A stretch of 64,000 bases of DNA, taken from assembly GCA_019322375.1 (NCBI GenBank), contig JAHWIP010000003.1, forward strand, positions 6,792-70,791, in the 5' to 3' direction. Every line of letters begins with the position of its first letter. Within the stretch, counting starts at the first letter, position 1. The position numbers and the translations under genes are program-made. Under the pieces are notes generated by a model. That model was not told where the DNA came from. It did no database searches and worked only from the letters and a program-made list of their open reading frames with translations. Shown here piece by piece: positions 33,045 through 46,639 of this stretch. The DNA comes from Candidatus Woesearchaeota archaeon. GTDB lineage: Archaea > Nanobdellota > Nanobdellia > Woesearchaeales > SM23-78.

Positions 33045-33335
33045 ATGAAGTTCTTGAATAATAAGAAAGGAGTCCAGCTAACCCTTTCTACAGTGGTTAT
33101 TGCAGTGCTTGTAATCATTGTGCTCATAGTGTTGATAGTGATTTTTACCCAGGGAACAGGCTTGTTCAACATAGGAATAACCAGCTGCGCTGATAGGGGA
33201 GGTAATTGTAATTACGAATCAGCAGATCAATGCGTTGATACTGGCGGCAGTGTTTACAGGTTTGGCAAGTGCACCGACGGGGTTTGCTGTATTCCTAAGG
33301 ACAAGCTTTCAGGGCAAGATGATAATCAAGACTAA
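33045..33335 (+). CDS. Small pilin-like Cys-rich protein (KKG|VQLTLSTVVIAVLVIIVL)
   Basis: 96 aa; Cys pattern C..C....C....G..C..GVCC shared with its neighbours. Confidence 0.55.
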   Translation: MKFLNNKKGVQLTLSTVVIAVLVIIVLIVLIVIFTQGTGLFNIGITSCADRGGNCNYESADQCVDTGGSVYRFGKCTDGVCCIPKDKLSGQDDNQD

Positions 33336-35157
33336 TAAGAAGAGGGCTGAGCTCACTATAACCCAAGTAGTACTCATGGTTCTGGGTGTAGTTGTTCTTA
33401 TTGTGCTGCTTTTTGTTTTGAAAATAATACCCACAGGAATTAGAAGTCTTACGAGCTGCTCTGACTGGGGGCAGTGCAGGCCAGGAAATGTTTGCGCACC
33501 AAATGAATACATAAAATTTGAAGCAAAGGATGACTGTCCTGCAAACCATGTGTGCTGCGTGCCTACAACCACAAGGCCAGGACCTCTTCAGGATTTTAAT
33601 GAAAAAGAGCTTGAATACCTGAGAAATGCTATTATCATAAAGCTTAACAATGACCCTACGCCTATAAGCGATGTAGCAAGCCTTAACTTAAAAGTTGATA
33701 CTAATTATACATTTCGTATAAGTATTAATGATAAGCTCACCAAGGATAAAAAAACAAGTGAAAAGCTTGGCCCTTGCGCTGTTTATGTGGTTGACACAAG
33801 AGAAGCAGGCAAGAAATATTTATTAACAAATAAAGGCTGGGACTTGATTCTTTCTGACAAAGAGATTGATTTGAGCGGCATAGAGCTGGCTGAGTGCACT
33901 GAAGAAAGCATTAGGTTAAAAAAATATTCTCCTTCACTAAATGATGTTTACAAGGACTTGGTGCTGTATGTTATTCTTTTGGATAAGGAAGTTGTTGATG
34001 CACTTGAAGTATTAGAAACACACGACCCTGGCTTTGTTAAACTAACTGCTCCTGGGTTTGGCAGTGGAATTAATCTCCCTGATAGGGGGATGGCAGCTTT
34101 TTATAATCTCACAACAATGTACAGCAATGTTGACCACTGGCTTGCTTACAGAGCCATAAGACTTAATGTTGAGCCAGTAGTCCAGATTAGTGGTATGAGC
34201 GGAATATGGGTTGACAAGGACCCAATAACCATATCCTGCCCTGATGTTACCTGCATCAGGTTTGGCTTAAAACTAGTGAAACTAAAAGACAATGATTATT
34301 TACAGTTGGTAGAAGAGTGCAAGAAGCCAGAAGGCTTTAAGTACACTCTTGATTATGTTGCAGGAACAACAACAAAAACAACAGGCATACCATTGAACAT
34401 TAATATTGGAGGTTTCAGGATTCCTCCTCAAAGACAAAAACTCCAGTACATTGTAAGCCAAAAACCAATAACTGTTGTTAATAATAAAGCAGATGTTTTG
34501 ATTGACAGGGCTACCATGCTAAAAACCTTTTACTCAGGAGACCACGAGTTATTAATCGAGGACACTACTTATCTTTGCGTAGAAGCCACCAAGGATGACG
34601 GCTCAAAGGTTCATGGGCTCTCAGAGCAGCCTATTAAAGTGGATGTTTTTCCGCCCATGGTTGACCCTGACAAGGATGTGCAGTTATTTTATCCAGACCC
34701 AGTGATCTCATCAGACATATCAACCCCTTATTATTACAGGAAGTACCCTAAGATTGTTGTTTCTGGATGCTATGATTATGGCCAGAGCGGATGCACTAAT
34801 TATGATTACTATATTCATTCAGGAGAATTTGTTAATCTAAGGTCTCTGACAGCAGAGTGGGAGATAGGAATTGCTTCTTTGATACTAACAGAGGGCTTGA
34901 ATGCCCTGCTCACTTATTTTGCAGAAAAAGATGCTGTCAACACTATATGCCCGTTTATAACCAGCCATTCTTACACAAGAAACACCCGCAATGAGATAAG
35001 AATCCCAAGGCAAGGGCAGGGCATAATATGCATCAGGGTTAGTGACAAAGTAGGCAACAAAGACATTATCTGGAAGGTGCTCTGGACACCTGAAGAGATG
35101 TTCAAGAAAATTATTGCAGAAGGAGTGGCAGAGGCAGAAGAAGCAGTGACTGGATAG
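33319..35157 (+). CDS. Large pilin-like protein (KKRA|ELTITQVVLMVLGVVVLIVL) with an N-terminal Cys-knot-like module
   Basis: ATG at 33319 inside track ORF 33235-35157; the first 28 codons overlap the previous gene. Same C...HVCC module, then ~520 aa of unknown ectodomain. Confidence 0.55.
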   Translation: MIIKTNKKRAELTITQVVLMVLGVVVLIVLLFVLKIIPTGIRSLTSCSDWGQCRPGNVCAPNEYIKFEAKDDCPANHVCCVPTTTRPGPLQDFNEKELEYLRNAIIIKLNNDPTPISDVASLNLKVDTNYTFRISINDKLTKDKKTSEKLGPCAVYVVDTREAGKKYLLTNKGWDLILSDKEIDLSGIELAECTEESIRLKKYSPSLNDVYKDLVLYVILLDKEVVDALEVLETHDPGFVKLTAPGFGSGINLPDRGMAAFYNLTTMYSNVDHWLAYRAIRLNVEPVVQISGMSGIWVDKDPITISCPDVTCIRFGLKLVKLKDNDYLQLVEECKKPEGFKYTLDYVAGTTTKTTGIPLNINIGGFRIPPQRQKLQYIVSQKPITVVNNKADVLIDRATMLKTFYSGDHELLIEDTTYLCVEATKDDGSKVHGLSEQPIKVDVFPPMVDPDKDVQLFYPDPVISSDISTPYYYRKYPKIVVSGCYDYGQSGCTNYDYYIHSGEFVNLRSLTAEWEIGIASLILTEGLNALLTYFAEKDAVNTICPFITSHSYTRNTRNEIRIPRQGQGIICIRVSDKVGNKDIIWKVLWTPEEMFKKIIAEGVAEAEEAVTG

Positions 35158-35229: not shown

Positions 35230-35334
35230 ATGAAAAAAGGAGATTTGTCAACACTGGCAACTGTTATAATTATATTATTAACTCTTGTGTTTATAATCTT
35301 TATTTTCGGAAGAATCTATGGGTGGTGGGGTTGA
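35230..35334 (+). CDS. Tiny 34-aa pilin-like ORF (MKKGDLSTLATVIIILLTLVFIIFIFGRIYGWWG)
   Basis: KKG|DLSTL plus a hydrophobic helix only; below the ORF-track cutoff. Confidence 0.3.
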   Translation: MKKGDLSTLATVIIILLTLVFIIFIFGRIYGWWG

Positions 35335-35339
35335 AAAGG

Positions 35340-36299
35340 ATGAGCAGGATTAATAAAAAAGCAGGATTAAGCACATTACAAACAATTATCATTATCCTGC
35401 TCATATTTGTTGTTCTATTAATCTTTTACCAGGACTTAAGAGCAACTCTGTTAAAAAAATCTAACAGAGAGATATGCAGGGCTACTGCTCTTGCCCAGTC
35501 TGTTGCTGTGTGGGCGCCTGAAGGAGAGAATTTGGTTAGTCTTGAATGCAAGACTTACAAGGTTGTGTTTTTTGAAGACCATGTTGAGATTAATGATGAA
35601 ATAATTGAGGTGTATGACCCCAGGAAAAAAGATGTTGTTAAAAAGTTTAATGGCTTAACAGAGGACATTGTTAACTGGGTGATTGCAGAGGAGCTCAGAT
35701 GGTGCTGGTGGCAGTTTCTTGAAGGAAAAAAAAGCTTGTTAAACATGAAGAACTTTTTTGGCTCAGCAGAAAGAACCTGTTTTTTATGCACTGAAATAAC
35801 TTTTGATGAATCAGTTAAGACTGATGAATTCAAAAACTTCTTTAAGTACACCAAGGAAAAAACAATGCCTAATTCTGAAATGACTTATTACCAGTACTAT
35901 GCTGAGGAGCCCAGGAAGTGCATCTGGAGGTATGAAGAGATTATTGATGCAGATAATTGCTGGGAAGCCTATGCACAGGGCATCTCGCCTAATATAATAA
36001 CCAGCACTGTACAGCATTTTAAAGAGGCATTTAGCCATTGCTCAGGCATAATACCTGCTCTTTCAACTTACTGGTCTTCTGTAACGCATTATAGTGTTGT
36101 TAAAAACATAACCTTTGAGAAAGATAAAAAGTATGCTGTGACTTTTGTAAGGGAAGGAGCAACCTCAAGGCATCTTGAGCTAGAAAAATTAGTAAAAGGA
36201 GAGACTGATTGTTTTTTTGAAACTTATTTTTCATATGTAATCCCTTCTGATGAACTAGGAAAGCACTGCGGCCCTGTGAGAAGAGGCTCTATGAAATAA
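35340..36299 (+). CDS. Pilin-like protein (KKAG|LSTLQTIIIILLIFVVLLIF), paralog of 36301-37197
   Basis: ATG at 35340. Shared ectodomain pattern C....C...CWW..F..G...F.G...C..C..ITFDE with the next gene. Confidence 0.55.
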   Translation: MSRINKKAGLSTLQTIIIILLIFVVLLIFYQDLRATLLKKSNREICRATALAQSVAVWAPEGENLVSLECKTYKVVFFEDHVEINDEIIEVYDPRKKDVVKKFNGLTEDIVNWVIAEELRWCWWQFLEGKKSLLNMKNFFGSAERTCFLCTEITFDESVKTDEFKNFFKYTKEKTMPNSEMTYYQYYAEEPRKCIWRYEEIIDADNCWEAYAQGISPNIITSTVQHFKEAFSHCSGIIPALSTYWSSVTHYSVVKNITFEKDKKYAVTFVREGATSRHLELEKLVKGETDCFFETYFSYVIPSDELGKHCGPVRRGSMK

Positions 36300-36300
36300 A

Positions 36301-37197
36301 ATGAACAAGAAAGCCATTGTGTTTGACAAACTCATGACAGCTGTTCTGATAATCATTGTGCTGGCTGTTTTTATTTTTTTCCTGGTAAAGATAAAAATCC
36401 ATGCCTTAAAAATTGTTGAGGATTCTGAGTGCAAAGCAAGCATTATCAGCCATGCAACTCTTTTAAGGGTGACTGGAGAAGACACAACACCAGACATTCA
36501 CTGCCCTACCAAATATTATACTCTTCCAAAAGAAAGCAATGAAGAAATAAAGCATTATATTGCTGATTCATTAAAGACCTGCTGGGGAACCTGGGGCAAA
36601 GGAGAGCTTCAGTTATTTAACCAGCAAGGCTATTACTGCCATGTGTGCTCTGTGATTGATTTTGATGATAAAACAAAAAAAATACAAGGCCTGAACAATT
36701 ACCTGATTAATACGCCAACAGATAAAGATACCCCTCTCACATACATGGACTACCTCACAGGTTATGCATCTGAAAAAGCAGACCCTGCATTAATACAAGA
36801 GGTTCAGGAAAAAGGTTTTTCAGACACCATACACACTTCAAAGCCTTATGCAGTCATGTTTGTTTATGCCAAAGGAAAAACAGGTGTTAAAGCATTTCTT
36901 GATGGCATGGATGCTCTTGGCCTGGGAACAACAGGAGGAGGAATCACTACAGGGCTTGCACTGGGCTCAGCAGCAGGCATAGGGCTGGCAGCAGCAGGAG
37001 TGGCAAGTGGTGGAGCAGCAATTGTTATAGCAGGAGCAGTCACAGCTGCTGGCGGAGTGATAGGCTATATAACAGCAGATGATACTCACTGGATAGCCCT
37101 TACATTGTTCACAGAATACAATGCTGAAACCCTGAAAAGCATTGGGTGCGAGATAGCCCCTGCAAAGCAGGACAGAAAAACTGATGAAACTGGTTAA
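36301..37197 (+). CDS. Pilin-like protein with a shared Cys module and a C-terminal Gly/Ala-rich glycine-zipper hydrophobic segment
   Basis: 298 aa; the stop of the previous gene overlaps its ATG (TAAAATG); GLGTTGGGITTGLALGSAAGIGLAAAGVASGGAAIVIAGAVTAAGGVIGYI. Confidence 0.55.
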   Translation: MNKKAIVFDKLMTAVLIIIVLAVFIFFLVKIKIHALKIVEDSECKASIISHATLLRVTGEDTTPDIHCPTKYYTLPKESNEEIKHYIADSLKTCWGTWGKGELQLFNQQGYYCHVCSVIDFDDKTKKIQGLNNYLINTPTDKDTPLTYMDYLTGYASEKADPALIQEVQEKGFSDTIHTSKPYAVMFVYAKGKTGVKAFLDGMDALGLGTTGGGITTGLALGSAAGIGLAAAGVASGGAAIVIAGAVTAAGGVIGYITADDTHWIALTLFTEYNAETLKSIGCEIAPAKQDRKTDETG

Positions 37198-37280: not shown

Positions 37281-37442
37281 ATGAGTTATGGCATGAACCG
37301 TATGAACAAGAAAGCCCAGGAAACAATGAGTCCTGAAGGCGGCACACTAAGAATAATATGGTTTGTGATTGTCTTATTAGTACTTATTATTATTGTTTAT
37401 TTTGTTGCAACAAATTTTAAACTAATCAAACTGCCATTTTGA
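37281..37442 (+). CDS. Small 53-aa pilin-like ORF (…NKKAQETMSPEGGTLRIIWFVIVLLVLIIIVYFVATNF…)
   Basis: Manually translated 54 codons; charged N-region then a hydrophobic helix; below the ORF-track cutoff. Confidence 0.3.
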   Translation: MSYGMNRMNKKAQETMSPEGGTLRIIWFVIVLLVLIIIVYFVATNFKLIKLPF

Positions 37443-37451: not shown

Positions 37452-38285
37452 ATGAAGCTGATAAATGCTATTGGTGCCATTGTTTTAGGATTGTTTGTAT
37501 TAATTATACTAATCCTGATATTTGTTCCAAACACATTCAAAATTGTTAATAATATCTTTCTTATTATTGGCCAACAATTAGGCTTTAACCCAGCAGTTCC
37601 TGGAGGTGAAGACTATGGCTTTGGAGGGCTTTATGGAAGCACACCATCAACTATTCCAACTGATGCTGAGCCAGAGCGTATTAAAAAAGTCAAAACAAAG
37701 CCAGGCATTCCTGTTGATGAAAAATATTTTGGAGAGCTCTACTCTTATTCCAGGGAAGGAGCACTTGTTGACACCATTGTACTGCACCACACAGGGGATA
37801 ATAAAGCTTCGCAAACATTCAATACTCTGAAAAAAAGAGAGCTTTCAGTGCATTATGTTGTTGACAAGGACGGCACAATATATTACTTGATAGATGAGAG
37901 CACAAAAGGCGCTCATTGCGGTTGCTGCCCGCCAAGCAACCCGACTTGTTGCAAAGCAGGAGAAAACTGTCCTGTTTGCCTGAATGAAGAATTAAGAGAA
38001 ATGAATGCCAAATCAATAGGCATTGAAATTGTTAACACAGGATATGCAGATGATTACTACACTAATGAGCAATATGTTTCAATAGATAAACTGATAAATG
38101 ATATTGCAAGCAGATGGACTGCTATTGCTGTTGATAATGAGCATGTGCTTGGGCATTACCAGATTACACTGGGTAAGTGGGATCCTTCACCTGTTTTTAA
38201 ATGGGCAAGAATACAAGGATTGTCAGGCCACTTAATGCTTGCAGACATAGGAAAAAAAGCACCCTCTGAATACGGCTATACATGA
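37452..38285 (+). CDS. Membrane-anchored N-acetylmuramoyl-L-alanine amidase (Amidase_2 / T7-lysozyme / PGRP fold) with a Cys-rich insertion
   Basis: TIVLHHTGD (Zn His), SVHYVVDKDGTIYYLIDE...AHCG, NAKSIGIEIVNTG, VLGHYQITLGKWDPSP. These align with T7 lysozyme AIFVHCSAT / VGYHFIIKRDGTV / NHNSIGVCLVGG / AHHEVAPKACPSFD. A CCPPSNPTCCKAGENCPVC insert is present. N-terminal TM. Confidence 0.7.
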   Translation: MKLINAIGAIVLGLFVLIILILIFVPNTFKIVNNIFLIIGQQLGFNPAVPGGEDYGFGGLYGSTPSTIPTDAEPERIKKVKTKPGIPVDEKYFGELYSYSREGALVDTIVLHHTGDNKASQTFNTLKKRELSVHYVVDKDGTIYYLIDESTKGAHCGCCPPSNPTCCKAGENCPVCLNEELREMNAKSIGIEIVNTGYADDYYTNEQYVSIDKLINDIASRWTAIAVDNEHVLGHYQITLGKWDPSPVFKWARIQGLSGHLMLADIGKKAPSEYGYT

Positions 38286-38352: not shown

Positions 38353-39081
38353 TTGCAAGAATTATATGAGATGAAACCCTTGTTTTCAAAGAATAAAAAA
38401 AAGAAAGGCTTGTCAACCCTTGGAACCATTATAGGACTAATACTTTTACTAGCAGTCCTGGCAATCTTTCTTCCGGTTATTCTTCGCGCAGGCAAAACAA
38501 CTGATGAAGTCCCCAAAGACATAATGGACCCTGTCAAGGCATGCCATGGAAAAGAGAGTGGTGAGGAATGTTATCTTGGCGGAATAGCTGGTTTTTGCAG
38601 GGATTTCAGGTGTGTTATAGAGACTTCAGCAAAAAACATGAAAGAATCAATAACTATTTTCAAGACAACTTTCAAGGACAGCATTGAGAATTGCCAGAAA
38701 GATGTAGCCCAGTGCCCTGAGGCAACAAAGGCTCTGGACTTAATGATTGGTTATTTCACAGATGCAGGGCTTGTTGTTCATAGATTAGCCTCAGACAGAG
38801 CAGAGTTCAGGCTATACCAGGAAAAAAACTTTTTAGGTATTGGAGGGCATAAAGCCTCTTTTGTTTTTTACGGCGATACTTGTGTAATAGAGAAGAAAGG
38901 GGATAATGATGTTCCTACATCGGGCAAAAACTTTAAGCTTGGGATCAAAAAAGAAAGCAAAGGTTTTGTAGTATATGACCTTGAAAAAACTGCTGCTGAA
39001 CTAGGCACTTTTATATCTTTCAGGCATCAAACCCAGAATGATGCAACCACCCCGGTCTGTGTTTATTACACTACAGATTAG
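38353..39081 (+). CDS. Pilin-like protein (KKKG|LSTLGTIIGLILLLAVLAIF)
   Basis: 242 aa; textbook class III signal peptide. Confidence 0.55.
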   Translation: MQELYEMKPLFSKNKKKKGLSTLGTIIGLILLLAVLAIFLPVILRAGKTTDEVPKDIMDPVKACHGKESGEECYLGGIAGFCRDFRCVIETSAKNMKESITIFKTTFKDSIENCQKDVAQCPEATKALDLMIGYFTDAGLVVHRLASDRAEFRLYQEKNFLGIGGHKASFVFYGDTCVIEKKGDNDVPTSGKNFKLGIKKESKGFVVYDLEKTAAELGTFISFRHQTQNDATTPVCVYYTTD

Positions 39082-39154: not shown

Positions 39155-39808
39155 TTGTTAACAAAATCAAGAAAAGGACTTTCCCTTTTAGGAATGCTTG
39201 GTGGTGTAATCATAGTAGTTGTACTGGTTATTGTTCTAATCAATATTTTCATTAACAGAGGAGCCAAGCCTCTGGAGAACATCACTGGAGAGATAATTAC
39301 CTGCGGAGGACTTGCAGGTGTTATTGGCGGGGGAGAAGGGGTTTGTATAAGCAAAAGCACTCTTTGCGACGGCCCAAAGCTTCCTAATCCTGAGTGCAAG
39401 GCTAGCAATCCTGACAAGCCTTATTGCTGTTTTAAACAAGCAGAGGGTGCTGAAGGCCCTCCTGGTTCTGGCCCGACGGCTTGTGTTAAGGATGTTGACC
39501 CCTGGGAACCTGTAATTGTTGAAGACGATTATGTTTGCGCTTCTAGTAAGGAGGCGTGCGAGCAGACTATGAATTTTGTTAATGTTCTGAATGAATGTGC
39601 TCAATTTAGTGAAGGTTGTGAATGCAAGGATGAAGTAGAAGGAATTGAGCACCCTTGTGAAGGCAATCTTAAATGGGCTCTTTTTGGCCTTGATAAATCT
39701 GAGCCTAAACATGAAGTTGTTATGAAATGCTATCCTGCTGTTAAGGAATGCGAGGATTCAAATGAATGTGAGCGTTGTGTTCCAAACCATTTTGAATGTG
39801 CAGAATAA
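39155..39808 (+). CDS. Pilin-like Cys-rich protein (SRKG|LSLLGMLGGVIIVVVLVIVL)
   Basis: 217 aa; ~20 Cys in the ectodomain. Confidence 0.55.
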   Translation: MLTKSRKGLSLLGMLGGVIIVVVLVIVLINIFINRGAKPLENITGEIITCGGLAGVIGGGEGVCISKSTLCDGPKLPNPECKASNPDKPYCCFKQAEGAEGPPGSGPTACVKDVDPWEPVIVEDDYVCASSKEACEQTMNFVNVLNECAQFSEGCECKDEVEGIEHPCEGNLKWALFGLDKSEPKHEVVMKCYPAVKECEDSNECERCVPNHFECAE

Positions 39809-39872: not shown

Positions 39873-41027
39873 ATGGCTTGGATGAATAAAAAAGGCGGTG
39901 AAAGACAGATTGGACTTAGCGAACTTACGCTTTATGTGTTTGTCATTCTGCTTATAGTTGTCTTATTTATTGTTAGCTATAGGTTTATCGGAGCTTTTCT
40001 CAGAGGAGGAGTTGATAAAGACACTGAGTCTAATTTTGTGTCACTGGCAGAGAACCTTGAGTTAATGATTGAGAAAGACGCAGGGTTTGAATACCAGACC
40101 ATGATTTTTTATATGAAAGAAAAGCATTTTGTGTTTGGCTTTACATCCAAGCAGGCTCTTTCCTCTTCTCCAGCAAAGCATTTTATGCCTGAGAAATGCA
40201 ATGAGCACTCATGCCTTTGCCTGTATAAAGAACCTGATGATGTAGCAGATGACAAGCCTGTCAAGTGCATATCTTTTGGGCACAAGGTTATTTTTCATGG
40301 CTATGACTTAAAAAAAGTGTCTGCTGCTCAGCTGGTTTATCCTGACCTAGGAGCAGAGCTGGGTGCGCGTGAGCAAGGAGAATCTTATTATTTATCTGAT
40401 TATCCTGAAACTATTTCTTTTTATATAGAAGGCTTGTTTATTGGCCCTTCACTAGACAATCCTCATGACCTTTACCTGGAAAAAATAGTTGCTAATAACA
40501 GGGTGCATGTTTTTGTGACTCCTGGCCTTAAGCAGGAAATGATAGAGACAAGGATTGAACTGTTATCTCCCTGCCCTTTTGATTCTGATGAAGAATGCAT
40601 GGGCAAGAGAAGAAACTCTGTTCTGGGCAGTAATGATTATTGTTTTTATGATGAGAGCCAGGCTAAGTGCTTGTTAAAAAAAGATGTGGATGCCTGTTCT
40701 TTCTCAGACAGAATTACACAGCCCTGTCTTTGCGGCTCTACATTTATAGACCCAGACACCAGGACAGAAGAAACCTATTGTTATCAAAAATCTGATAAAA
40801 GGATTTTTGTCCTTCCATTTGACTGCGATTCAGAGGAATTAAGAGAAAAAAAATGCCTTGCTTACTGCAGGGCAATCACTGATACAGAGGACTGCGACAC
40901 AAGAGAACAGGATTACTGTGATAAAGACCCTTGCGAGTTTGCTTCTAAAGAAAAGCCGTGCGAAGTGCGCCCATTAGGCAAAAAAACTTATTGTGCTTCT
41001 TACTCAAGGGATTACAGCATGGATTAA
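39873..41027 (+). CDS. Pilin-like Cys-rich protein (G|LSELTLYVFVILLIVVLFIV; Glu at +3)
   Basis: 384 aa; many Cys in the C-terminal half. Confidence 0.55.
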   Translation: MAWMNKKGGERQIGLSELTLYVFVILLIVVLFIVSYRFIGAFLRGGVDKDTESNFVSLAENLELMIEKDAGFEYQTMIFYMKEKHFVFGFTSKQALSSSPAKHFMPEKCNEHSCLCLYKEPDDVADDKPVKCISFGHKVIFHGYDLKKVSAAQLVYPDLGAELGAREQGESYYLSDYPETISFYIEGLFIGPSLDNPHDLYLEKIVANNRVHVFVTPGLKQEMIETRIELLSPCPFDSDEECMGKRRNSVLGSNDYCFYDESQAKCLLKKDVDACSFSDRITQPCLCGSTFIDPDTRTEETYCYQKSDKRIFVLPFDCDSEELREKKCLAYCRAITDTEDCDTREQDYCDKDPCEFASKEKPCEVRPLGKKTYCASYSRDYSMD

Positions 41028-41113: not shown

Positions 41114-41596
41114 ATGAGTTTTTATGATTTTAATAACAAGAAAGCCAGGAGCATGATTGCAACTTCTTTTTATGTATTATTTGGCTTGATGCTGGGAGCC
41201 TTTTTTGTGATAGCTGTTCTTGGAAGAGTTAAGGATGCTGTTGGTGATTCTGCTTATCATAAAAAGTTTTATTCCAGGGACCTGGCCTTGCTTGTTGATG
41301 CCTTGCATGCCAGCAATGGAAAGTTTGTTGTTGATTATGATGTTAATCTTCCAGACAACATGCTCCTGGACTTTGGTCTTGAGCCTGGAGCAGTCATCTT
41401 AACAGACCGCTCTGACACACTCATGGATAACAGGCATAAAACTGCTTTTTTGTTTGGGCATAATGATTATGTAAAAATAATTCCTGTCACAATTGACAAG
41501 AACATGCTTAAATTGTTAGTGGTGGCTGATAACAACACCATTACATTTGAAGAGAAAGGGATGGATGATTTAAGTACAAATGATAAAGAGGAGTGA
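41114..41596 (+). CDS. Pilin-like membrane-anchored protein
   Basis: 160 aa; KKARSMIATSFYVLFGLMLGAFFVIAVLG. Confidence 0.45.
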   Translation: MSFYDFNNKKARSMIATSFYVLFGLMLGAFFVIAVLGRVKDAVGDSAYHKKFYSRDLALLVDALHASNGKFVVDYDVNLPDNMLLDFGLEPGAVILTDRSDTLMDNRHKTAFLFGHNDYVKIIPVTIDKNMLKLLVVADNNTITFEEKGMDDLSTNDKEE

Positions 41597-41629: not shown

Positions 41630-42169
41630 ATGAGAATAATAAAAAAGAGGCTGAGCCTGAATAACAAAAAGGGGTTGGGAACTGAGGAGTGGCTTGAACT
41701 TCTGCCTTACATAGTGTTAACAGTGGTTGTAATGGTGGCTATTTTTGCCCTGATAAACCTTTTTGTTAATATTTCTGTTGATGTTAAGCCTGTTCAAAGG
41801 GAAGTTCTTTTCTACAGGCTGATGTATGCTCCTAACTCAATTATGTATATGGATAATCTTACTGGCAGGGTTCACCCTGGTGTTATTAGCTGGGATAATT
41901 TTACCAACCAGACCCTTGACAAATCTATTGCTTATGATTATGAAAGGCATATATCTGCAAAATTGATATTATATAACCTGGAAAAAGAGCCAATCAAAAC
42001 AGCTTATCTTAATGGGCTGTGGTTTAACCGCTTAGAGCCTTTGGCCAGGAGCAGGATTAAGGGTGCAGGCAGTGCAGAGCTCTACACCAAGAAAATCCCT
42101 GTTGTTTACAGGAGAAATGATGTGAACAGGGCAGGCTATCTTAAAGTTGAGATTATCATTCCAAACTAA
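41630..42169 (+). CDS. Pilin-like protein (KKG|LGTEEWLELLPYIVLTVVVMVAIFALINL; Glu at +4/+5)
   Basis: 179 aa; class III signal plus Glu5, like bacterial T4 pilins. Confidence 0.55.
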   Translation: MRIIKKRLSLNNKKGLGTEEWLELLPYIVLTVVVMVAIFALINLFVNISVDVKPVQREVLFYRLMYAPNSIMYMDNLTGRVHPGVISWDNFTNQTLDKSIAYDYERHISAKLILYNLEKEPIKTAYLNGLWFNRLEPLARSRIKGAGSAELYTKKIPVVYRRNDVNRAGYLKVEIIIPN

Positions 42170-42184: not shown

Positions 42185-42853
42185 ATGAGCAGTTTGATTA
42201 ATTCAAGAAAAGGCATGAAAACCATTGTGACAATATTATCAGTTGTCTTGTTAGTATTCATATTCATAATATTTATTTTTCTTTTCAGGCTTGGCGCCAG
42301 GAACAAGGCAGAAAGCATAGAATCAGATTTTTCCTCTGTAAGAACAGAGTTTTTGCTTAAAACCTTTTTAAGAACACCAGCTGTTATTAGTGATGATTAC
42401 CCTGTTGAAGACTTGTTCCCTGGCATAGGAGAAGGCATTACCAATGCAGACCTGGTATCATGGACATGTAGTAAGGATAAAGACAGGAATTACAAGACCT
42501 TGAAAAACTCAATAAACACTTTTTTTGATGAGGCATATGAAGATGACTGGGAAGCATGGATAATCTATTCTAATCCTAAAGTAAAAAAGAAGGGCTTTGG
42601 GCACAAGAGTTATCTTGAAGGGATTGAGAAAAGCATAAACCGCTTGCTAACAGCAGGACAGCTGGCTTTGCTAGCAGCCAAATCATCAGACCCAGCCAGC
42701 AGGGGATTAATCTTCAAGCTTTTTATAACTCCTTATCGTGAAGCAGGCTTTGGCTCCCAGGTGGTTCCTTGCCCAGACGGAGAACTAGCCCAGATAATGC
42801 TTTACTCCCACACAGCATTTATTGAAATAAAACACCTGAAAGGCTTAACATAA
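42185..42853 (+). CDS. Pilin-like protein (SRKG|MKTIVTILSVVLLVFIFIIFIF)
   Basis: 222 aa. Confidence 0.5.
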   Translation: MSSLINSRKGMKTIVTILSVVLLVFIFIIFIFLFRLGARNKAESIESDFSSVRTEFLLKTFLRTPAVISDDYPVEDLFPGIGEGITNADLVSWTCSKDKDRNYKTLKNSINTFFDEAYEDDWEAWIIYSNPKVKKKGFGHKSYLEGIEKSINRLLTAGQLALLAAKSSDPASRGLIFKLFITPYREAGFGSQVVPCPDGELAQIMLYSHTAFIEIKHLKGLT

Positions 42854-42865: not shown

Positions 42866-45800
42866 ATGGATAAAGTAAAACTGAGATTAAAAAACAGAAA
42901 AGCACAGGTTTACCCGCTTTTTGTAGTGGTCTTTACAATAGTGGCCTTGACAACAGCCCTTATTGGCTTGAGCAATGCAAAAGAGGTTACTGATTTATCT
43001 GGCAGGGAAATGCTTATCGGCACCAAGCAATCAGCTGTTTTTGCATCTCTTCAAGACGCAGATGCTGTTAGTTTATTCATAGAGCAGGCAGCAGAATTTG
43101 CAGGCCAGCAAGCCCTGGATAAAATAAGAAAATCATGCTTTTTTGGAGTTGATGAGGAACAAGAAGTTGATGAGTGGGAGTCTCCATGCGGCAAGTTTGT
43201 TTATCCTCTTTGGAGCACTAATGAAAATCTTTGCCTTCCTGATTGTGAAACAGCTTTTGTCAATGCCTTTAACAAGGATTTTTTAAGCCGAACAAACAAG
43301 TATTATGAGTTCACAAACATAGAGCTGCCTATTTCTTATAACATGAGCCTGGAAATACATGACAATCATTTTTTTGTTCATGGAACCTCTGACACAGAAC
43401 TAAGGATTAATGTGGTTGATATTCAGAGCAGGATTAAGTCTCCCCTGGCAATAGCCCAGACTTATGAGGAAGGCAGGCTTATCTGGCCTGTTGATTACTC
43501 TGACCACACAATCACCTCTTGCTTTGGTGAAAGAGATGTTGTTGGGGGGAGCAAATACCATCCTGCTGTTGATATCCGGGCTCCAAAAGGAACACCAGTG
43601 CTGGCAGCTGCTTTAGGAAAAGTGATTCTTACTGACCCTTGCTGGGGAAGAATTGTTATTAATCATGGCTCTGGCTTAAGCACAGAGTATCTTCACTTGG
43701 AAAAAATTGATGTTAAGGTTAATGATGATGTGGTGCAGGGACAAAGAATAGGAACTTCTGGCAGCAATGGCTGTGACACAAGAGAGTTTGTTCCGCACCT
43801 GCATTTTGGGGTTATATATCAAGGTGTTCAGTCACCCATGCATTATAAAGGGCAGGAAATAGTTTTGAGCAACAACCATATCCAGCCCATGTGCTTGATT
43901 GAAAAAGGGTATGCTGCTAAGCCAGAAAGCAACTGCAACCAGCTTGTGAACACAGACTTAGACAAGATTTGTGAATTGTATAATCTGCCAGAAGAATTTT
44001 TTGAATCATCAGAATCATCAAAGCCATCAGAGCCATCAGAACCAGACCAAGACACTTCTTCTGAAGAAAGTGCTGATGCAGAGAATGCTGGTGCAGAAAG
44101 TGTTAATGCAGAAAGCACTGAGCTGGATTATTCTCTGGCACAGGCTCCTGGCAGCTATGCTTTTAAACCATCTTTTACCTTGAGGGTTAACAAGAAAATA
44201 GAAAACCCTATTGAGCCAGTAACAGAGTGGTTTGAGAACACCTGGAACGAGTGCGAGGATGACCCTTGGAAATGTTTAAGAGAAAAAATGAGTGAGTTTA
44301 ATGAGCAGGACTATGATTACAAGCTCATGTTTGCTGACAGGTGCGAGGAAGGCTATCACTTGTTCTATGACATACTGGAGTTTTTTGAGGACTGCTTTTC
44401 AAACCAGAAGTATGGGTGCTCATGCGAGTTTAATTTATCAGATGCTTTTTCAATAACTGACTTGCGAATAGTTTTTGACACACAAGCAAACACAGCCTCT
44501 CTTTTTTCCAAGCAGGGAGATAAGCCTGGTGATGAATATGAATTAATTGATTCATACCAGTTCTATTATGGAAGCATAACCAAGCCAGCCCCTGCTTCTC
44601 CTTATAGGTATTATGTGTATCAGCTTGATTATGATGATTATGGGGAGCTGGAAAATGCAGAGCTTATGCAAATGAAGTCATTGCTTGATGTATTTGATGT
44701 TGTGCCTTTTTTTGATTACAAAGAACTAAGACTGGCAAAGCCAGGAGAGGCTGAGCAAGGATATTTTGTGAACACAGAAACAATTCAGTGCAAGTACAAG
44801 AAGAACAAGTTCAGGCTGTGTGCAAAGCCAGCACAGGAAAGAGAAGACTTGTTCCCTATAAGGTTTGCTTTTCACTTAAAAGACAAGCCTCCTGAGCCTG
44901 TTAAAAAAGGAGATGTGGAAATTATAGAGGTGGAGGAGAGTTCTGAGTCAGATGTTGACAAGGTAATGCAGGCAGCAGGCTTTCTAGGAACCATATTCCC
45001 TCCTCTAGGCTACTTGTTCACAGCAATTAATATTCTCAGTGTGTTGGAAGACTTTAAACCAAGAAAGTTCGAGGTAATAGTTGATGTTCCTCTTGACAAG
45101 GATGGCAAACCCCTGGATGTTGCTGGCTATGAAGTTTATTGCAGTGATTACCTGACAAACATCCTGCCAGTGGATGTTTTGGATAAATATAATCCAAGTC
45201 ATTTTGTTGTGATGGCTAATGATGAGATGAATAAAAAAGTAAGCCAGCTAGACCAGTATGTTAAGAAGAACCCTTACACAGACTTTCTGAATCTTGAGAG
45301 CTGTGATGTGCCTGTGAGCAAGTTCACAGGAGAAACCATTCTTGTGCCTGGAATCAAAGGGGTTGTTAAGGACGGTAAAATGGTTTTCAACCTTCATAAA
45401 TGCGGGGACTTGGCAATAATTATAGATAAACTAATAAGAAAAGACTACTGTGTATCACTAATACCTGTTGACAAGAATGGCAACAAGATAATGGAGCATG
45501 CTGTGAGCAACTGCGCGCAAACCAATTCACTGCTTGACCTGGTTATTAGTGAGATGATAGAGGAACAGCTAGGAGAATTTATTCCTGCAAGCCTTATACC
45601 TGATAATTTAAAGCCTTATATCAAGCTGCCTGACACAAGCGATATTGTTAATGCAGTAACAGGGGAAGGCAGTTTTGACATGATAGACATTGTTAATCTT
45701 GACAAGCTGGACGCAGACATAAAAAATTATCTTGAGGAATTCGTGGTTGGAACTATTAATGAAGACATAATAGGCACTTCTGTTGTTAATTCTATTGATG

Positions 45801-46639
45801 ACTTAAAGCTCTGGGAAAAACAAACAGTGCTTAACACCCTGTCAAACCAGATAAAAAATGATGATGCAAAAACCTTGTTTGATGCCTTTGTAACAGGAGA
45901 AGGTGTTGCTGAGTCTGCCAAGCGCATGGCTTATGAAAAAGGAGTAGGATATATAGACCAGACAAAAACACCTGAGATACTTAAGGAGATAGCCAAAGGA
46001 GAAGACCCTAAAAGCCTTGCATACCAGGAACTGGTAAAAGCAGCTGAGAAAGAGCTCAGCACTGACGAGAAAAAACAGGCTCTGCTGGAGATAGCCAGGA
46101 GCAGCAGTGGAAGAGAGGTAAAAGATAAGATAATAGAAAAAGCCCTTGAAAAAGGATGCGGCGAGTCATATGGAATAAGTGCAGAGCAGGCAATCAACTG
46201 CCTTGACAATGAAGAGGTAGAAAATATTTATCACAAAGTTCTGACAGACTACAGCACACCAGACAAGGTAAAACAGTTTTTGCTTGACAAGGCAATTGAC
46301 AAGTTTGATGAAAAAACACCAGACGTGCTAAAAGAGATTGTTCTGAAAAGAGACTTTAAAGGAGCAGCAAAGGACATGCTTGAGAAAGAGCTTGACAAGC
46401 TTCCAGACGCTGTTAAGAAAGAGTTTATTACTGATATACTTGAAGGCAGGCTTCCAGATGTTGAGTACTTGCAGCAGGAACTAGTGAAAATGATACCAGC
46501 AGTAAACAATGAATATGTGAATGCCCTGCTAAAAGACGGCAATGTTAAAAACCTGATAGAATCAACCCTTAAATCAGAGATAGAAAAACAACTAGGCTCA
46601 TTCTTCTCAGATGAATGCGTGGCAATTAATAAGGATTGA
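42866..46639 (+). CDS. Giant (1257-aa) pilin-like protein carrying a LytM/M23 metallo-endopeptidase domain
   Basis: N-terminus NRKAQVYPLFVVVFTIVALTTALIGL. M23 motifs HPAVDIRAPKGTPVLAAALGKVIL...IVINHGSGLSTEYLHL...GQRIGTSGSNG...PHLHFGVIY (HxxxD ... HxH). S/E-rich linker repeats at ~43990-44110; long alpha-helical K/E-rich C-terminal region. Confidence 0.75.
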   Translation: MDKVKLRLKNRKAQVYPLFVVVFTIVALTTALIGLSNAKEVTDLSGREMLIGTKQSAVFASLQDADAVSLFIEQAAEFAGQQALDKIRKSCFFGVDEEQEVDEWESPCGKFVYPLWSTNENLCLPDCETAFVNAFNKDFLSRTNKYYEFTNIELPISYNMSLEIHDNHFFVHGTSDTELRINVVDIQSRIKSPLAIAQTYEEGRLIWPVDYSDHTITSCFGERDVVGGSKYHPAVDIRAPKGTPVLAAALGKVILTDPCWGRIVINHGSGLSTEYLHLEKIDVKVNDDVVQGQRIGTSGSNGCDTREFVPHLHFGVIYQGVQSPMHYKGQEIVLSNNHIQPMCLIEKGYAAKPESNCNQLVNTDLDKICELYNLPEEFFESSESSKPSEPSEPDQDTSSEESADAENAGAESVNAESTELDYSLAQAPGSYAFKPSFTLRVNKKIENPIEPVTEWFENTWNECEDDPWKCLREKMSEFNEQDYDYKLMFADRCEEGYHLFYDILEFFEDCFSNQKYGCSCEFNLSDAFSITDLRIVFDTQANTASLFSKQGDKPGDEYELIDSYQFYYGSITKPAPASPYRYYVYQLDYDDYGELENAELMQMKSLLDVFDVVPFFDYKELRLAKPGEAEQGYFVNTETIQCKYKKNKFRLCAKPAQEREDLFPIRFAFHLKDKPPEPVKKGDVEIIEVEESSESDVDKVMQAAGFLGTIFPPLGYLFTAINILSVLEDFKPRKFEVIVDVPLDKDGKPLDVAGYEVYCSDYLTNILPVDVLDKYNPSHFVVMANDEMNKKVSQLDQYVKKNPYTDFLNLESCDVPVSKFTGETILVPGIKGVVKDGKMVFNLHKCGDLAIIIDKLIRKDYCVSLIPVDKNGNKIMEHAVSNCAQTNSLLDLVISEMIEEQLGEFIPASLIPDNLKPYIKLPDTSDIVNAVTGEGSFDMIDIVNLDKLDADIKNYLEEFVVGTINEDIIGTSVVNSIDDLKLWEKQTVLNTLSNQIKNDDAKTLFDAFVTGEGVAESAKRMAYEKGVGYIDQTKTPEILKEIAKGEDPKSLAYQELVKAAEKELSTDEKKQALLEIARSSSGREVKDKIIEKALEKGCGESYGISAEQAINCLDNEEVENIYHKVLTDYSTPDKVKQFLLDKAIDKFDEKTPDVLKEIVLKRDFKGAAKDMLEKELDKLPDAVKKEFITDILEGRLPDVEYLQQELVKMIPAVNNEYVNALLKDGNVKNLIESTLKSEIEKQLGSFFSDECVAINKD

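What the first reader, a model, noticed from the sequence alone, without database searches (positions are those of the whole stretch)
42866..46639. 1257-aa pilin-like giant protein with an intact M23/LytM metallopeptidase catalytic core
The protein has a class-III-like N-terminus (RKAQVYPLFVVVFTIVALTTAL). It carries complete M23 motifs: HPAVD (HxxxD), the glycine-rich strand and PHLHFGV (HxH). An S/E/P-rich flexible linker is encoded by short tandem DNA repeats (43990-44110). A ~750-aa K/E-rich helical C-terminal region follows. An M23 domain fused to a pilin-like anchor at this scale is unusual. M23 enzymes cleave peptidoglycan cross-bridges, for example lysostaphin and LytM.
Basis: partly seen in the sequence, partly recalled or inferred. 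Interest (0 to 1): 0.8.

Follow-up and report, generated by a model that had tools for sequence, protein, structure and literature searches.

The report
Archaeal pilin-anchored bacterial cell-wall cutter
A tiny symbiotic-type archaeon, which has no bacterial-type cell wall of its own, encodes a giant surface protein carrying an intact bacterial cell-wall-cutting enzyme at the end of a conserved 14-gene pilus-like operon, which points to a device for attacking or docking onto bacteria; the general idea is already published, but this modular architecture and operon were not described in the four papers I checked.

Summary
The ORF (42866-46639, 1257 aa) is real. It carries a genuine Peptidase_M23 domain (Pfam E=1.8e-21) whose zinc and catalytic residues (H232, D236, H277, H311, H313) are invariant in all 10 aligned relatives. 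The window is archaeal: it holds an archaeal RNase P RNA and RadA, and the protein is deposited as [quoted passage not shown].

It belongs to a rare family (18 proteins at E<1e-30 among 1.84 billion representatives). The frame is constant: N-domain, enzyme cassette, Cys-rich middle domain, β domain, helical C-terminus. The cassette varies: M23, M23+Amidase_2, M23+SLT, SLT alone, Amidase_2 alone, or none. The operon's stand-alone Amidase_2 gene is the closest relative of the domain fused there in one relative.

The gene ends a conserved chromosomal 14-gene operon (32755-46639). Nearly every product of that operon starts with N-K-K-[G/A] before a hydrophobic helix, matching EppA-type archaeal prepilin cleavage sites.

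Most likely it is a prepilin-type, surface- or filament-displayed murein endopeptidase aimed at bacterial cell walls. Large murein hydrolases in Woesearchaeota are already published, so this is a new variant of a known kind. Only the last ~370 aa are helical, not ~750.

The parts
32686..32693 (+). TATA-like box (TTTAAATA), ~62 bp upstream of the first operon gene; a GAGGTGA Shine-Dalgarno lies at ~32743
   Evidence: Read directly from the sequence. A functional promoter is inferred, not tested.
32755..33042 (+). Operon gene 1: 95-aa pilin-like protein (MDKKA|QGLSMNVIIIAAIALLVL...)
   Evidence: ORF. Orthologues sit at the same position in L001, L006, L011 and L012. No curated pilin model matches.
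33045..33335 (+). Operon gene 2: 96-aa pilin-like protein (NNKKG|VQLTLSTVVIAV...)
   Evidence: paralogous to gene 1 and to the N-terminus of gene 3. Weak Flp1_like hit, E=0.018.
33319..35157 (+). Operon gene 3: ~612-aa Cys-rich protein with a class III-like N-terminus (NKKRA|ELTITQVV...). The mechanical ORF starts at 33235; the likely start is the ATG at 33319.
   Evidence: (48% identity to L001 742-2562).
35322..36299 (+). Operon gene 4: 325 aa, NKKA|GLSTLQTIIII; paralogue of gene 5
36301..37197 (+). Operon gene 5: 298 aa, MNKKA|IVFDKLMTAVLIII
37281..37442 (+). Operon gene 6: 53-aa protein (MNKKA|QETM...hydrophobic helix). A 35-55-aa gene sits at this position in every syntenic locus.
37452..38285 (+). 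Operon gene 7: membrane-anchored N-acetylmuramoyl-L-alanine amidase (Amidase_2). It has a plain N-terminal helix without the KK[GA] site.
   Evidence: Pfam PF01510 E=4.3e-25. Its best relative in the fetched loci is the Amidase_2 domain fused inside giant protein P0005 (48% over 190 aa). Amidase_2 genes occupy the same position in L005 and L012.
38353..39081 (+). Operon gene 8: 242 aa, KKKKG|LSTLGTIIGL
39155..39808 (+). Operon gene 9: 217 aa, 18 Cys, SRKG|LSLLGMLGG
39873..41027 (+). Operon gene 10: 384 aa, 20 Cys, MNKKG|GERQIGLSELTL
   Evidence: 37% identity to L001 and L003 orthologues.
41114..41596 (+). Operon gene 11: 160 aa, NNKKA|RSMIATSFYVLF
   Evidence: 53-55% identity to orthologues.
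41630..42169 (+). Operon gene 12: 179 aa, NNKKG|LGTEEWLELLPYIVLT (conserved acidic residues at +4/+5)
   Evidence: (61-64% identity).
42185..42853 (+). Operon gene 13: 222 aa, NSRKG|MKTIVTILSVV
42866..46639 (+). Operon gene 14: the 1257-aa giant M23 protein (the finding)
42866..42982 (+). Giant protein aa 1-39: basic leader ending in N-R-K-A, putative cleavage before Gln14, then a hydrophobic helix
   Evidence: The site matches EppA-type processed sites (PMC4371748). Cleavage itself is inferred.
42983..43480 (+). Giant protein aa 40-205: conserved N-domain (IGxKQ helix, 4 Cys) with no known fold
   Evidence: Conserved in all family members and recognisable in distant relatives. No PDB match. 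Model confidence is low.
43481..43870 (+). Giant protein aa 206-335: Peptidase_M23 domain with H232, D236, H277, H311 and H313
   Evidence: The AF2 core has pLDDT 82-90.
43991..44146 (+). Giant protein aa 376-427: acidic S/E/P linker encoded by 9-bp and 15-bp tandem repeats. This is the slot where relatives carry Amidase_2 or SLT.
44147..44905 (+). Giant protein aa 428-680: Cys-rich 'middle domain' (GxYSxxPxF...CxC...KxFRxCA...IKFALxLxD) that accompanies murein hydrolases
   Evidence: AF2 pLDDT ~66-88.
45065..45532 (+). Giant protein aa 734-889: beta-rich domain
45533..46636 (+). Giant protein aa 890-1257: K/E/D-rich all-helical C-terminal domain
   Evidence: AF2 helices with pLDDT 75-88; composition. 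No fold or family match.
26..1891 (+). 621-aa polytopic membrane protein, probably the PilC/FlaJ-type platform of a type IV pilus-like machine. This is context, not part of the operon.
   Evidence: 12 hydrophobic segments. Homologue P0100 is immediately preceded by a T2SSE ATPase (PF00437) in L019. No Pfam match of its own.

Best explanation
The gene encodes an active-type M23 zinc endopeptidase mounted on a large extracellular frame. A DPANN archaeon (Woesearchaeota/Nanoarchaeota) displays it on its surface through a prepilin-type (class III) N-terminus.

Proposed mechanism:
(1) The basic leader ending in N-R-K-A is removed by an archaeal prepilin peptidase before Gln14. The hydrophobic helix then holds the protein in the membrane or, more specifically, in a type IV pilus-like filament or tip complex built from the other 12 class III-like products of the same 14-gene operon.
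(2) The M23 head cuts peptide cross-links of bacterial murein. The operon's membrane-anchored Amidase_2 strips stem peptides from the glycan. Relatives add or substitute a lytic transglycosylase.
(3) The Cys-rich middle domain, the beta domain and the helical C-terminus serve as the constant carrier or targeting frame.
(4) The archaeon has no murein, so the enzymes can be displayed without harming the cell. They would act on a bacterial partner or prey at the contact site, for attachment, penetration or feeding.

Shown: the domain identities, intact catalytic residues, archaeal host, operon conservation, cassette swapping and the shared N-terminal site. Inferred: signal cleavage, filament or tip location, enzymatic activity, and a bacterium as the target.
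For: M23 identity and intact catalytic set.

Archaeal host: RNaseP_arch 121 bits; RadA, NAC, RPA and Hjc-type genes; NCBI source name 'Candidatus Woesearchaeota archaeon'; the family occurs only in Woesearchaeota/Nanoarchaeia MAGs among GTDB species representatives.

Murein as the shared substrate: the same frame carries M23, Amidase_2 and/or SLT. The operon's stand-alone Amidase_2 is 48% identical to the domain fused in P0005. The same operon position holds Amidase_2 or a weakly GH73-like protein in relatives. The middle domain co-occurs in 51 distant relatives with SLT (17), M23 (12), Amidase_2 (6), 3D, NlpC/P60 and VanY.

Prepilin-type display: N-K-K-[G/A] lies directly before the helix in 82 of 96 operon proteins against 38.2 expected. 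The site is identical in type to EppA-processed pilins, with +1 Gln (PMC4371748). Two ~95-aa pilin-like genes head the operon. A platform-like gene lies in the window, and its homologue is adjacent to a T2SSE ATPase.

Chromosomal and vertical inheritance: the same gene order between RNase P/RPA/CARDB/YdjM/RadA appears in six loci at 38-56% identity.

Literature agreeing with a bacterial target: PMC8204110, PMC9723730, PMC12352652.
Against: No curated pilin or class III model matches any operon protein. The giant protein fails my recollection of the strict FlaFind pattern. The AF2 model of aa 1-376 is poor (pLDDT 51.5), so no pilin fold is shown. No prepilin peptidase or ATPase is in the operon or the window, and the pilin-like cluster next to the platform gene is not paralogous to this operon.

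The enzyme head sits close to the N-terminal anchor, which is awkward for reaching a bacterial sacculus unless the anchor is at a filament tip. No recognised cell-wall-binding domain is present. No activity, expression or host data exist. I could not check whether this genome itself lacks murein synthesis genes.
Confidence: 0.55

Rival explanations
1. It is a membrane-tethered scavenging ectoenzyme. The N-terminal helix is an ordinary uncleaved signal anchor. The M23, Amidase_2 and SLT activities simply digest murein debris from dead bacteria to harvest amino acids and amino sugars for a metabolically poor archaeon. No filament and no living host are involved.
For: There is a single N-terminal hydrophobic helix. 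The operon's Amidase_2 has a plain anchor without the KK[GA] site. No pilin profile matches. Nutritional use of peptidoglycan by Pacearchaeota has been proposed (PMC11537232).
Against: The N-K-K-[G/A]|Q site is conserved far beyond what the positive-inside rule needs: 82 of 96 against 38 expected, with position-specific N, K, K, G/A. The gene is locked into a 14-gene operon headed by two small pilin-like genes. A ~830-aa conserved non-enzymatic frame is hard to justify for simple scavenging.
Confidence: 0.22
2. It is a secreted or shed antibacterial weapon, a bacteriocin-like murein hydrolase analogous to halobacterial Woldo or zoocin A. It would kill competing bacteria at a distance and would not belong to a contact apparatus.
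For: Archaeal M23 hydrolases that kill bacteria have been shown experimentally in Halobacteria (PMC12352652). Swappable catalytic cassettes resemble the domain shuffling of weaponised hydrolases.
Against: There is no recognisable cell-wall-binding domain such as those seen in weaponised hydrolases. The distribution is a strongly conserved, syntenic core-genome operon, not the patchy pattern typical of bacteriocins. The hydrophobic N-terminal helix predicts retention rather than release.
Confidence: 0.1
3. It acts on the archaeon's own envelope, on its own proteins, or on an archaeal host's pseudomurein or S-layer. In this reading M23 is a general metalloprotease or a maturation enzyme for the operon's pilin-like proteins.
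For: All cultured DPANN have archaeal hosts (background stated in PMC8204110 and PMC11537232). Woesearchaeota have been linked with methanogens (my own knowledge).
Against: Amidase_2, SLT and the weakly GH73-like protein all target bonds specific to bacterial murein (MurNAc-L-Ala; beta-1,4 MurNAc-GlcNAc), and they interchange with or accompany M23 on the same frame. Archaeal hydrolases of this kind are almost absent from pseudomurein-producing lineages (PMC12352652). The nearest solved M23 relatives are murein DD-endopeptidases of Gram-negative bacteria.
Confidence: 0.06
4. It is part of an integrated virus or other mobile element. In this reading it is a virion- or conjugation-associated lysin, like phage tape-measure or tail lysins or PrgK/CwlT-type conjugation hydrolases.
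For: Machine-associated giant proteins with M23 or SLT domains are typical of phage tails and conjugation systems. Solved phage proteins appear among the M23 matches: Gp16 9m7n, internal protein 9k2v, hub 8kea.
Against: The frame has no relative in 50,697 phage records, 72,556 plasmids or IMG/VR contigs. No significant structural match exists in the viral library. The operon keeps a fixed chromosomal position between housekeeping genes in six loci at 38-56% identity. No integrase or capsid genes are nearby.
Confidence: 0.04

Closest known systems
[quoted passage not shown] 2021, PMC8204110; also Vigneron et al. 2022, PMC9723730)
   Same: Same lineages, same size class (about 1000-3000 aa), extracellular, and carrying bacterial murein-degrading domains. 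They are proposed to bind or degrade bacterial walls. SLT-bearing proteins (P0006, P0008-P0010, P0021, P0061, P0062) share this protein's frame or its middle domain.
   Different: This member carries M23 and no SLT. In the passages I searched, those papers describe neither the constant frame with a cassette slot, nor the class III-type N-terminus, nor the 14-gene operon. I did not test whether this protein falls into fam00969.
Halobacterial M23 peptidoglycan hydrolases Woldo/Danwoldo and zoocin A (Strock et al. 2025, PMC12352652)
   Same: An archaeal protein with a bacterial-type M23 domain, presumed to act on bacterial murein.
   Different: Those are small modular enzymes (M23 plus PG_binding_1 repeats) with a patchy distribution. 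This one has no known wall-binding domain, is about 1257 aa, has a prepilin-type N-terminus and sits in a conserved operon.
Archaeal class III signal-peptide proteins: EppA-processed Epd pilins of Methanococcus maripaludis, and the Sulfolobus bindosome sugar-binding proteins (PMC4371748)
   Same: A basic leader ending in K/R-G/A, +1 Gln as in KG|QV and RA|QI, followed by a hydrophobic helix. The bindosome shows that large non-pilin proteins can use this route.
   Different: No profile-level homology. The QxSxE-type downstream motif is absent. Processing is untested. No enzyme-carrying class III protein of this size came up in what I read.
Machine-associated murein hydrolases of bacteria: PrgK (pCF10), TraG (pIP501), CwlT (ICEBs1), VirB1, FlgJ; and modular or tip-located type IV pilus proteins (Streptococcus sanguinis PilB/PilC, PilY1). 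All of these are from my own knowledge.
   Same: An N-terminal membrane or pilin-type anchor plus one to three murein hydrolase domains (M23/LytM, SLT, amidase/CHAP), encoded inside the operon of a surface machine. Bulky pilin-like proteins are placed at filament tips.
   Different: Those enzymes open the producer's own wall for machine assembly. Here the producer has no murein, so the target must be another cell. There is no sequence relationship outside the catalytic domains.
Murein DD-endopeptidases of Gram-negative bacteria with solved structures (6jmx Campylobacter M23 peptidase, ShyA 6ue4, DipM 7qrl)
   Same: These are the best sequence-profile matches to the M23 head (E=3.5e-19 to 2.4e-15), with all motifs aligned.
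   Different: Only the ~110-aa catalytic domain is shared. Lysostaphin and LytM glycyl-glycine endopeptidases are more distant (E=6e-9 to 7e-4), so cross-link specificity is a guess.

Membership tests
Peptidase family M23 (Pfam PF01551 / MEROPS M23) | Profile match above the curated gathering score | tested here: met
   76.5 bits against a 28.7 cut-off, E=1.8e-21, aa 231-321 covering profile positions 2-92 of 96.
Peptidase family M23 (Pfam PF01551 / MEROPS M23) | HxxxD and HxH zinc-binding/catalytic motifs plus the third catalytic His | tested here: met
   H232-P-A-V-D236, H277 (YLHL) and H311-L-H313 are invariant in 10 of 10 family members. They align with the same residues of 6jmx.
Peptidase family M23 (Pfam PF01551 / MEROPS M23) | Zinc-dependent cleavage of murein peptide bonds | not testable with these tools
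   Needs a zymogram or muropeptide analysis of the recombinant domain.
Archaeal type IV pilin-like (class III signal peptide) proteins | Short basic leader ending in [KR]-[GA], directly followed by a ~20-residue hydrophobic H-domain near the N-terminus | tested here: met
   The giant protein reads ...KNRKA|QVYPLFVVVFTIVALTTAL. 82 of 96 operon proteins in 9 loci carry the site against 38.2 expected from shuffled leaders, with consensus N-K-K-[G/A]. The site type equals the processed sites KG|QV and RA|QI (PMC4371748).
Archaeal type IV pilin-like (class III signal peptide) proteins | Match to curated pilin or class III signal models, or to the strict FlaFind pattern | tested here: not met
   No Pfam or NCBIfam pilin model matches at E<=0.01 for any protein of this operon. 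The best is Flp1_like at E=0.018, below its cut-off. The giant protein fails the FlaFind-type regular expression as I recalled it, although three operon proteins (genes 3, 8 and 9) pass it.
Archaeal type IV pilin-like (class III signal peptide) proteins | Cleavage by an A24-family prepilin peptidase (PibD/FlaK/EppA) | not testable with these tools
   No A24 peptidase among the window's membrane proteins. The rest of the genome was not available.
Archaeal type IV pilin-like (class III signal peptide) proteins | Pilin fold (long N-terminal helix packed on a beta-sheet) and incorporation into a filament | tested here: inconclusive
   The AF2 model of aa 1-376 has pLDDT 51.5, and aa 40-205 are below 60. 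The predicted elements are helices 53-62, 65-91 and 127-150 plus two strands, which is not diagnostic.
Archaeal type IV pilin-like (class III signal peptide) proteins | Genomic association with a type IV pilus ATPase and platform protein | tested here: inconclusive
   None is in the operon. A platform-like 621-aa protein lies 31 kb away at 26-1891, and its homologue is adjacent to a T2SSE ATPase. Its own pilin-like cluster is not paralogous to this operon.
Large extracellular murein hydrolases of Woesearchaeota/Pacearchaeota (Castelle 2021 fam00969) | Large DPANN-specific extracellular protein carrying a murein lytic transglycosylase (SLT) domain | tested here: not met
   This protein has no SLT domain. 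It is, however, homologous along its whole frame to SLT-bearing proteins P0006, P0008-P0010 and P0021. Membership of fam00969 itself was not tested.
Modular peptidoglycan hydrolase in the sense of Strock et al. 2025 (catalytic plus known wall-binding domain) | Presence of a recognised cell-wall-binding domain (PG_binding_1, LysM, SH3b and similar) | tested here: not met
   No such Pfam domain was found in the protein or in the post-slot region of 10 relatives.

The most novel reading that the evidence does not exclude
The 14-gene operon builds a type IV pilus-like filament. Its tip subunit is this giant prepilin-type protein, which carries interchangeable murein-hydrolase cassettes (M23, amidase, lytic transglycosylase). 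This would be an archaeal 'enzymatic drill' that lets a DPANN archaeon pierce the wall of a living bacterium. It would be the first defined cross-domain (archaeon-to-bacterium) attachment or attack apparatus. The Cys-rich middle domain would be a new murein-targeting or docking module.
Probability: 0.3. Interest if true: 0.8.

Novelty: new variant of a known kind. Interest (0 to 1): 0.5.

Why it matters
All cultivated DPANN archaea live on other archaea. Whether some live on or prey on bacteria is an open question, supported so far only by scattered annotations of murein hydrolase domains.

This locus turns that hint into a defined, testable system:
- a conserved frame protein whose enzyme payload is swapped between relatives among three different murein-cleaving chemistries;
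- a companion amidase that is fused in one lineage and separate in another;
- a fixed set of 12 prepilin-like partner proteins.

It gives concrete constructs for biochemistry (the M23 head, the amidase, the Cys-rich middle domain) and a marker operon for finding bacteria-associated Woesearchaeota in metagenomes and enrichments. If the filament-tip model holds, it would be a new way of delivering wall-degrading enzymes.

Tried and rejected
2. The N-terminal domain model was too poor (pLDDT 51.5) to test for a pilin fold.
3. Pfam LPD14 (polyvalent-protein domain, E=0.15) looked interesting, but it occurs in only 1 of 10 relatives, so I rejected it as chance.
4. A word-indexed search with the middle-domain profile A7 returned nothing. 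Taxa came instead from exact cluster look-ups.
5. I tried to read beyond the window start to find the pilus ATPase. Only a 1.7-kb Logan contig was retrieved, so I used a homologue's context instead.
6. I rejected viral, plasmid or mobile origin: no matches in phages, plasmids or IMG/VR.
7. The second hydrophobic patch (aa ~697-721) was considered as a second transmembrane segment. It is below threshold, poorly conserved and of low model confidence, so I do not call it a TM helix.
8. The GH73-like assignment of the 229-240-aa genes in relatives stays weak: Pfam E=4e-4 to 2e-2, below the cut-off; PDB profile E=0.004 to 0.02.
9. I found no paralogy between the pilin-like cluster at 3019-9744 and this operon.

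Full report
1. THE OBSERVATION

The ORF at 42866-46639 (+) exists as described: ATG start, 1257 codons. Its N-terminus, MDKVKLRLKNRKAQVYPLFVVVFTIVALTTAL, contains the protein's only strong hydrophobic helix (aa 13-39).

Pfam places a Peptidase_M23 domain at aa 231-321, with E=1.8e-21 and 76.5 bits against a cut-off of 28.7. A profile of the family aligns this region to solved M23 enzymes: 6jmx at E=3.5e-19, DipM, and ShyA. HxxxD, the YxHL histidine and HxH are all in register.

The acidic linker (aa 376-427) is 52% S+E+P with net charge -15. It is encoded by two short tandem arrays:
- 9 bp x4.7 at 44003-44044, read as ESS/ESS/KPS/EPS/EPD;
- 15 bp x3.4 at 44065-44115, read as ESADA/ENAGA/ESVNA.

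One element of the description is wrong. The region after the linker is not a ~750-aa helical tail. According to an AlphaFold2 model (mean pLDDT 64.9), composition and domain-wise homology, it consists of:
- a ~250-aa Cys-rich alpha/beta domain (aa 428-680);
- a ~50-aa low-confidence hinge;
- a ~155-aa beta-rich domain (aa 734-889);
- only then a ~368-aa K/E/D-rich helical domain (aa 890-1257).

2. WHOSE GENE IT IS

The window is archaeal. Evidence:
- It holds an archaeal RNase P RNA at 32269-32573 (-), 121 bits.
- It encodes RadA, NAC, an RPA-type OB-fold protein, an Hjc-like resolvase and a tRNA-splicing-endonuclease-like protein.
- The protein is identical to an NCBI entry named 'M23 family metallopeptidase [Candidatus Woesearchaeota archaeon]' on a 71-kb contig.

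Archaea of this group are not known to make murein, so a murein endopeptidase here is not a housekeeping enzyme. I could not check the rest of the genome for murein synthesis genes.

3. THE FAMILY AND ITS ARCHITECTURE

Only nine full-length relatives (39-56% identity) turned up among 5.8 billion clustered proteins. All named ones come from Woesearchaeota or Nanoarchaeota. An exhaustive HMMER search with the post-linker profile found 18 proteins at E<1e-30 among 1.84 billion representatives. A scan of GTDB species representatives found the family in about seven Woesearchaeota/Nanoarchaeia MAGs; one of them is labelled Methanosarcinales, which is probably a labelling or binning issue.

The alignment is conserved end to end, with many invariant cysteines. 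H232, D236, H277, H311 and H313 are invariant.

The family shows a constant frame with a variable payload. The frame is: leader and helix, N-domain, [cassette], middle domain, beta domain, helical domain. The cassettes seen are:
- M23 alone: this protein, P0002-4, P0007, P0022, P0023, P0025, L011;
- M23+Amidase_2: P0005;
- M23+SLT: P0006, P0008-10, L012;
- SLT alone: P0021;
- Amidase_2 alone: P0026, L015;
- nothing: P0028, P0030;
- one 2846-aa member (P0087) with M23+Amidase_2 plus about 1000 extra residues.

4. THE OPERON

The gene is the last of a tight same-strand cluster with gaps of -17 to 164 bp. The cluster starts at 32755 with two ~95-aa pilin-like genes that the ORF listing at 60 aa had hidden behind a longer overlapping frame. 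A TATA-like TTTAAATA and a GAGGTGA ribosome-binding site precede the first gene.

The same 13-14 genes occur in the same order in L001, L003, L005, L006, L011 and L012, and partly in L007 and L015. They are always flanked by RPA, a CARDB protein, YdjM and RadA. This is therefore a vertically inherited chromosomal operon. The frame has no relative in phage, plasmid or IMG/VR collections and no significant viral structural neighbour.

Gene 7 (37452-38285) is a membrane-anchored Amidase_2, E=4.3e-25. Its closest relative in the fetched loci is the Amidase_2 domain fused inside the giant protein of L003: 48% identity over 190 aa. This is a fusion/fission pair that ties the amidase functionally to the giant protein.

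At the same operon position:
- L005 and L012 also have Amidase_2;
- L001, L003 and L006 have an unrelated 229-240-aa protein with weak but consistent Glucosaminidase (GH73) hits, a conserved FFxQES motif, and weak matches to phage wall hydrolases.

In seven of the eight loci compared I identified at least one further murein hydrolase beside the M23 or amidase head of the giant protein, firmly in five and only weakly (GH73-like) in L001 and L006. L011 is the exception: its giant carries only M23 and the 314-aa gene at the amidase position has no Pfam hit. L005 and L012 have three. L015 and L007 could not be judged because too little upstream sequence was held.

5. THE N-TERMINUS

Of 96 operon proteins from nine loci that begin with a hydrophobic helix, 82 carry [KR][GA] within 14 residues upstream. 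Shuffled leaders give 38.2 expected. The aligned site reads N(-3) K(-2) K(-1) [G/A](0) | Q/M/E.

The giant protein has RKA|QVY. Its family consensus is KKA|QVY, and distant relatives have KKG|QVF or RKG|QVF. These are the same as the experimentally established sites of EppA-processed Methanococcus pilins (KG|QV, KG|QL, KG|QI, RA|QI), in which +1 Gln is required. The same review notes that large non-pilin proteins, the Sulfolobus bindosome sugar-binding proteins, also use class III signals (PMC4371748).

Evidence against membership of known pilin families:
- No Pfam or NCBIfam pilin model matches any operon protein.
- The model of aa 1-376 is confident only in the M23 core.
- There is no A24 peptidase in the window.

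A type IV pilus-like machine probably exists in the genome. The 621-aa polytopic protein at 26-1891 is widely conserved in DPANN, and in L019 its homologue is immediately preceded by a T2SSE ATPase. It is followed in the window by another cluster of proteins with N-terminal helices (3019-9744), but that cluster is not paralogous to this operon.

6. THE MIDDLE DOMAIN

Profile positions 2-255 of the post-slot region (aa ~428-680) recur in about 50 further representative proteins of 285-1800 aa. Of the 51 scanned:
- 17 carry SLT;
- 12 carry M23;
- 6 carry Amidase_2;
- 3 carry the 3D domain;
- 2 carry NlpC/P60;
- 2 carry VanY;
- 1 carries Lysozyme_like;
- 4 carry fn3.

Most of these begin with the same N[KR]K[GA]|Q-type N-terminus and an IGxKQ helix. 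Every one that has a source name is from Nanoarchaeota, Woesearchaeota or 'archaeon'.

7. HOW IT MOST LIKELY WORKS

Shown:
- an active-type M23 head;
- an archaeal host;
- a conserved operon of proteins sharing a prepilin-type site;
- interchange and fusion among three murein-specific enzyme types.

Inferred:
- The leader is cleaved before Gln14.
- The helix anchors the protein in the membrane or in a pilus-like filament. A protein this bulky could only sit at a tip, as bacterial modular or minor pilins do (my own knowledge).
- The M23 head, with the amidase (and SLT or a GH73-like enzyme in relatives), locally dismantles the sacculus of a bacterial partner or prey.
- The remaining ~830 aa serve as carrier or targeting frame.

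The nearest solved M23 relatives are DD-endopeptidases of Gram-negative bacteria, not lysostaphin-type glycyl-glycine enzymes. This hints at mDAP-type cross-links as the substrate, but that is weak evidence.

My confidence by step:
- M23 is catalytically competent: about 0.9.
- The substrate is bacterial murein: about 0.75.
- Processing is class III-type: about 0.6.
- The protein sits at a filament tip: about 0.3-0.35.

Rivals, ranked in the rival section, are:
- a plain membrane-tethered scavenging enzyme;
- a shed bacteriocin-like weapon;
- action on the archaeon's own or an archaeal host's envelope;
- a viral or mobile-element lysin.

8. COMPARISON WITH WHAT IS KNOWN, AND NOVELTY

The general claim that Woesearchaeota and Pacearchaeota encode large extracellular murein-degrading proteins, and may therefore interact with bacteria, is published:
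- Castelle et al. 2021, fam00969, proteins up to 3000 aa (PMC8204110);
- Vigneron et al. 2022 (PMC9723730);
- Strock et al. 2025, who also list M23 homologues in four Nanoarchaeia genomes and show that halobacterial M23 enzymes kill bacteria (PMC12352652).

The protein itself is already annotated as an M23 peptidase.

In the passages I searched of those papers, the following were not described:
- the constant frame with a cassette slot;
- the amidase fusion/fission;
- the conserved 14-gene prepilin-like operon;
- the shared N-K-K-[G/A]|Q site;
- the Cys-rich hydrolase-associated middle domain.

I therefore file it as a new variant of a known kind, with moderate interest (0.5). The interest would be higher (about 0.8) if the filament-tip 'drill' model proved true, which I put at about 0.3.

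9. PASSING OBSERVATIONS

A sigma-70-like gene and a GHKL-ATPase gene (48092-52498, -) are inserted between RPA and CARDB relative to all relatives. The sigma-like protein matches PADLOC MzaA at E=1e-51. Other items are listed separately.

Noticed in passing
window 48092-52498 (-): A 702-aa protein with bacterial sigma-70 regions 1.2, 2, 3 and 4 also matches PADLOC MzaA (E=9.7e-52). Beside it is a 743-aa HATPase_c_3 (GHKL) protein with weak REase_II hits. The pair has lower GC (0.35-0.36 against ~0.40) and is inserted between RPA and CARDB, which are adjacent in five related loci. Sigma-70 genes in Woesearchaeota are published as unexplained (PMC8204110). This context suggests an Mza-like defence island, not a transcription factor.
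   Followed up: partly
window 26-1891 (+) and 3019-9744 (+): A 621-aa polytopic membrane protein has no Pfam hit but is conserved across Woesearchaeota and Diapherotrites. Its homologue is directly preceded by a T2SSE ATPase (L019). It is followed in the window by eight genes for Cys-rich proteins with N-terminal hydrophobic helices, some with KKG/KKA sites. This is probably a type IV pilus-like locus whose ATPase lies just off the window edge.
   Followed up: partly
L001 4790-5512, L003 4819-5508, L006 4904-5614: At the operon position held by Amidase_2 in the window, these relatives have an unrelated 229-240-aa membrane-anchored protein. It has a conserved FFxQES motif, weak Glucosaminidase/SLT_4 Pfam hits (E=4e-4 to 2e-2) and weak matches to phage wall hydrolases. 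It may be an unrecognised lysozyme-like murein glycosidase.
   Followed up: partly
window 58923-61412 (-): An 829-aa Cys-rich protein has a Peptidase_C25 (gingipain-like) match (E=1e-7) and a class III-like N-terminus (NRA|MIGLVLMVALVAL). This is another large surface enzyme using the same kind of N-terminus.
   Followed up: no
window 54265-57738 (+): A 1157-aa protein has no Pfam or PADLOC match. It lies in a region between YdjM and RadA that differs in gene content in every related locus.
   Followed up: no
window 44954-45028 (giant protein aa ~697-721): A moderately hydrophobic stretch (AAGFLGTIFPPLGYLFTAINILSVL) sits between the middle and beta domains. It is just under the transmembrane threshold, its sequence is poorly conserved among relatives, and its model confidence is low. 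Its role is unknown; it could be a flexible hinge or a membrane-interacting segment.
   Followed up: partly
window 41630-42169 (+) and its orthologues: After the predicted cleavage site, this conserved 171-184-aa operon protein (179 aa in the window) has G|LGTEEWLE(L/Q)(L/I)PYI(V/I)LT, with acidic residues at +4/+5. This recalls the Glu5 of bacterial type IV pilins.
   Followed up: no
locus L012 (CAYGYA010000038.1): A contig carrying the complete operon and a 1428-aa M23+SLT giant protein is deposited as 'uncultured Methanosarcinales archaeon'. Given the synteny with Woesearchaeal loci, this is probably a taxonomic mislabel or a binning error.
   Followed up: no
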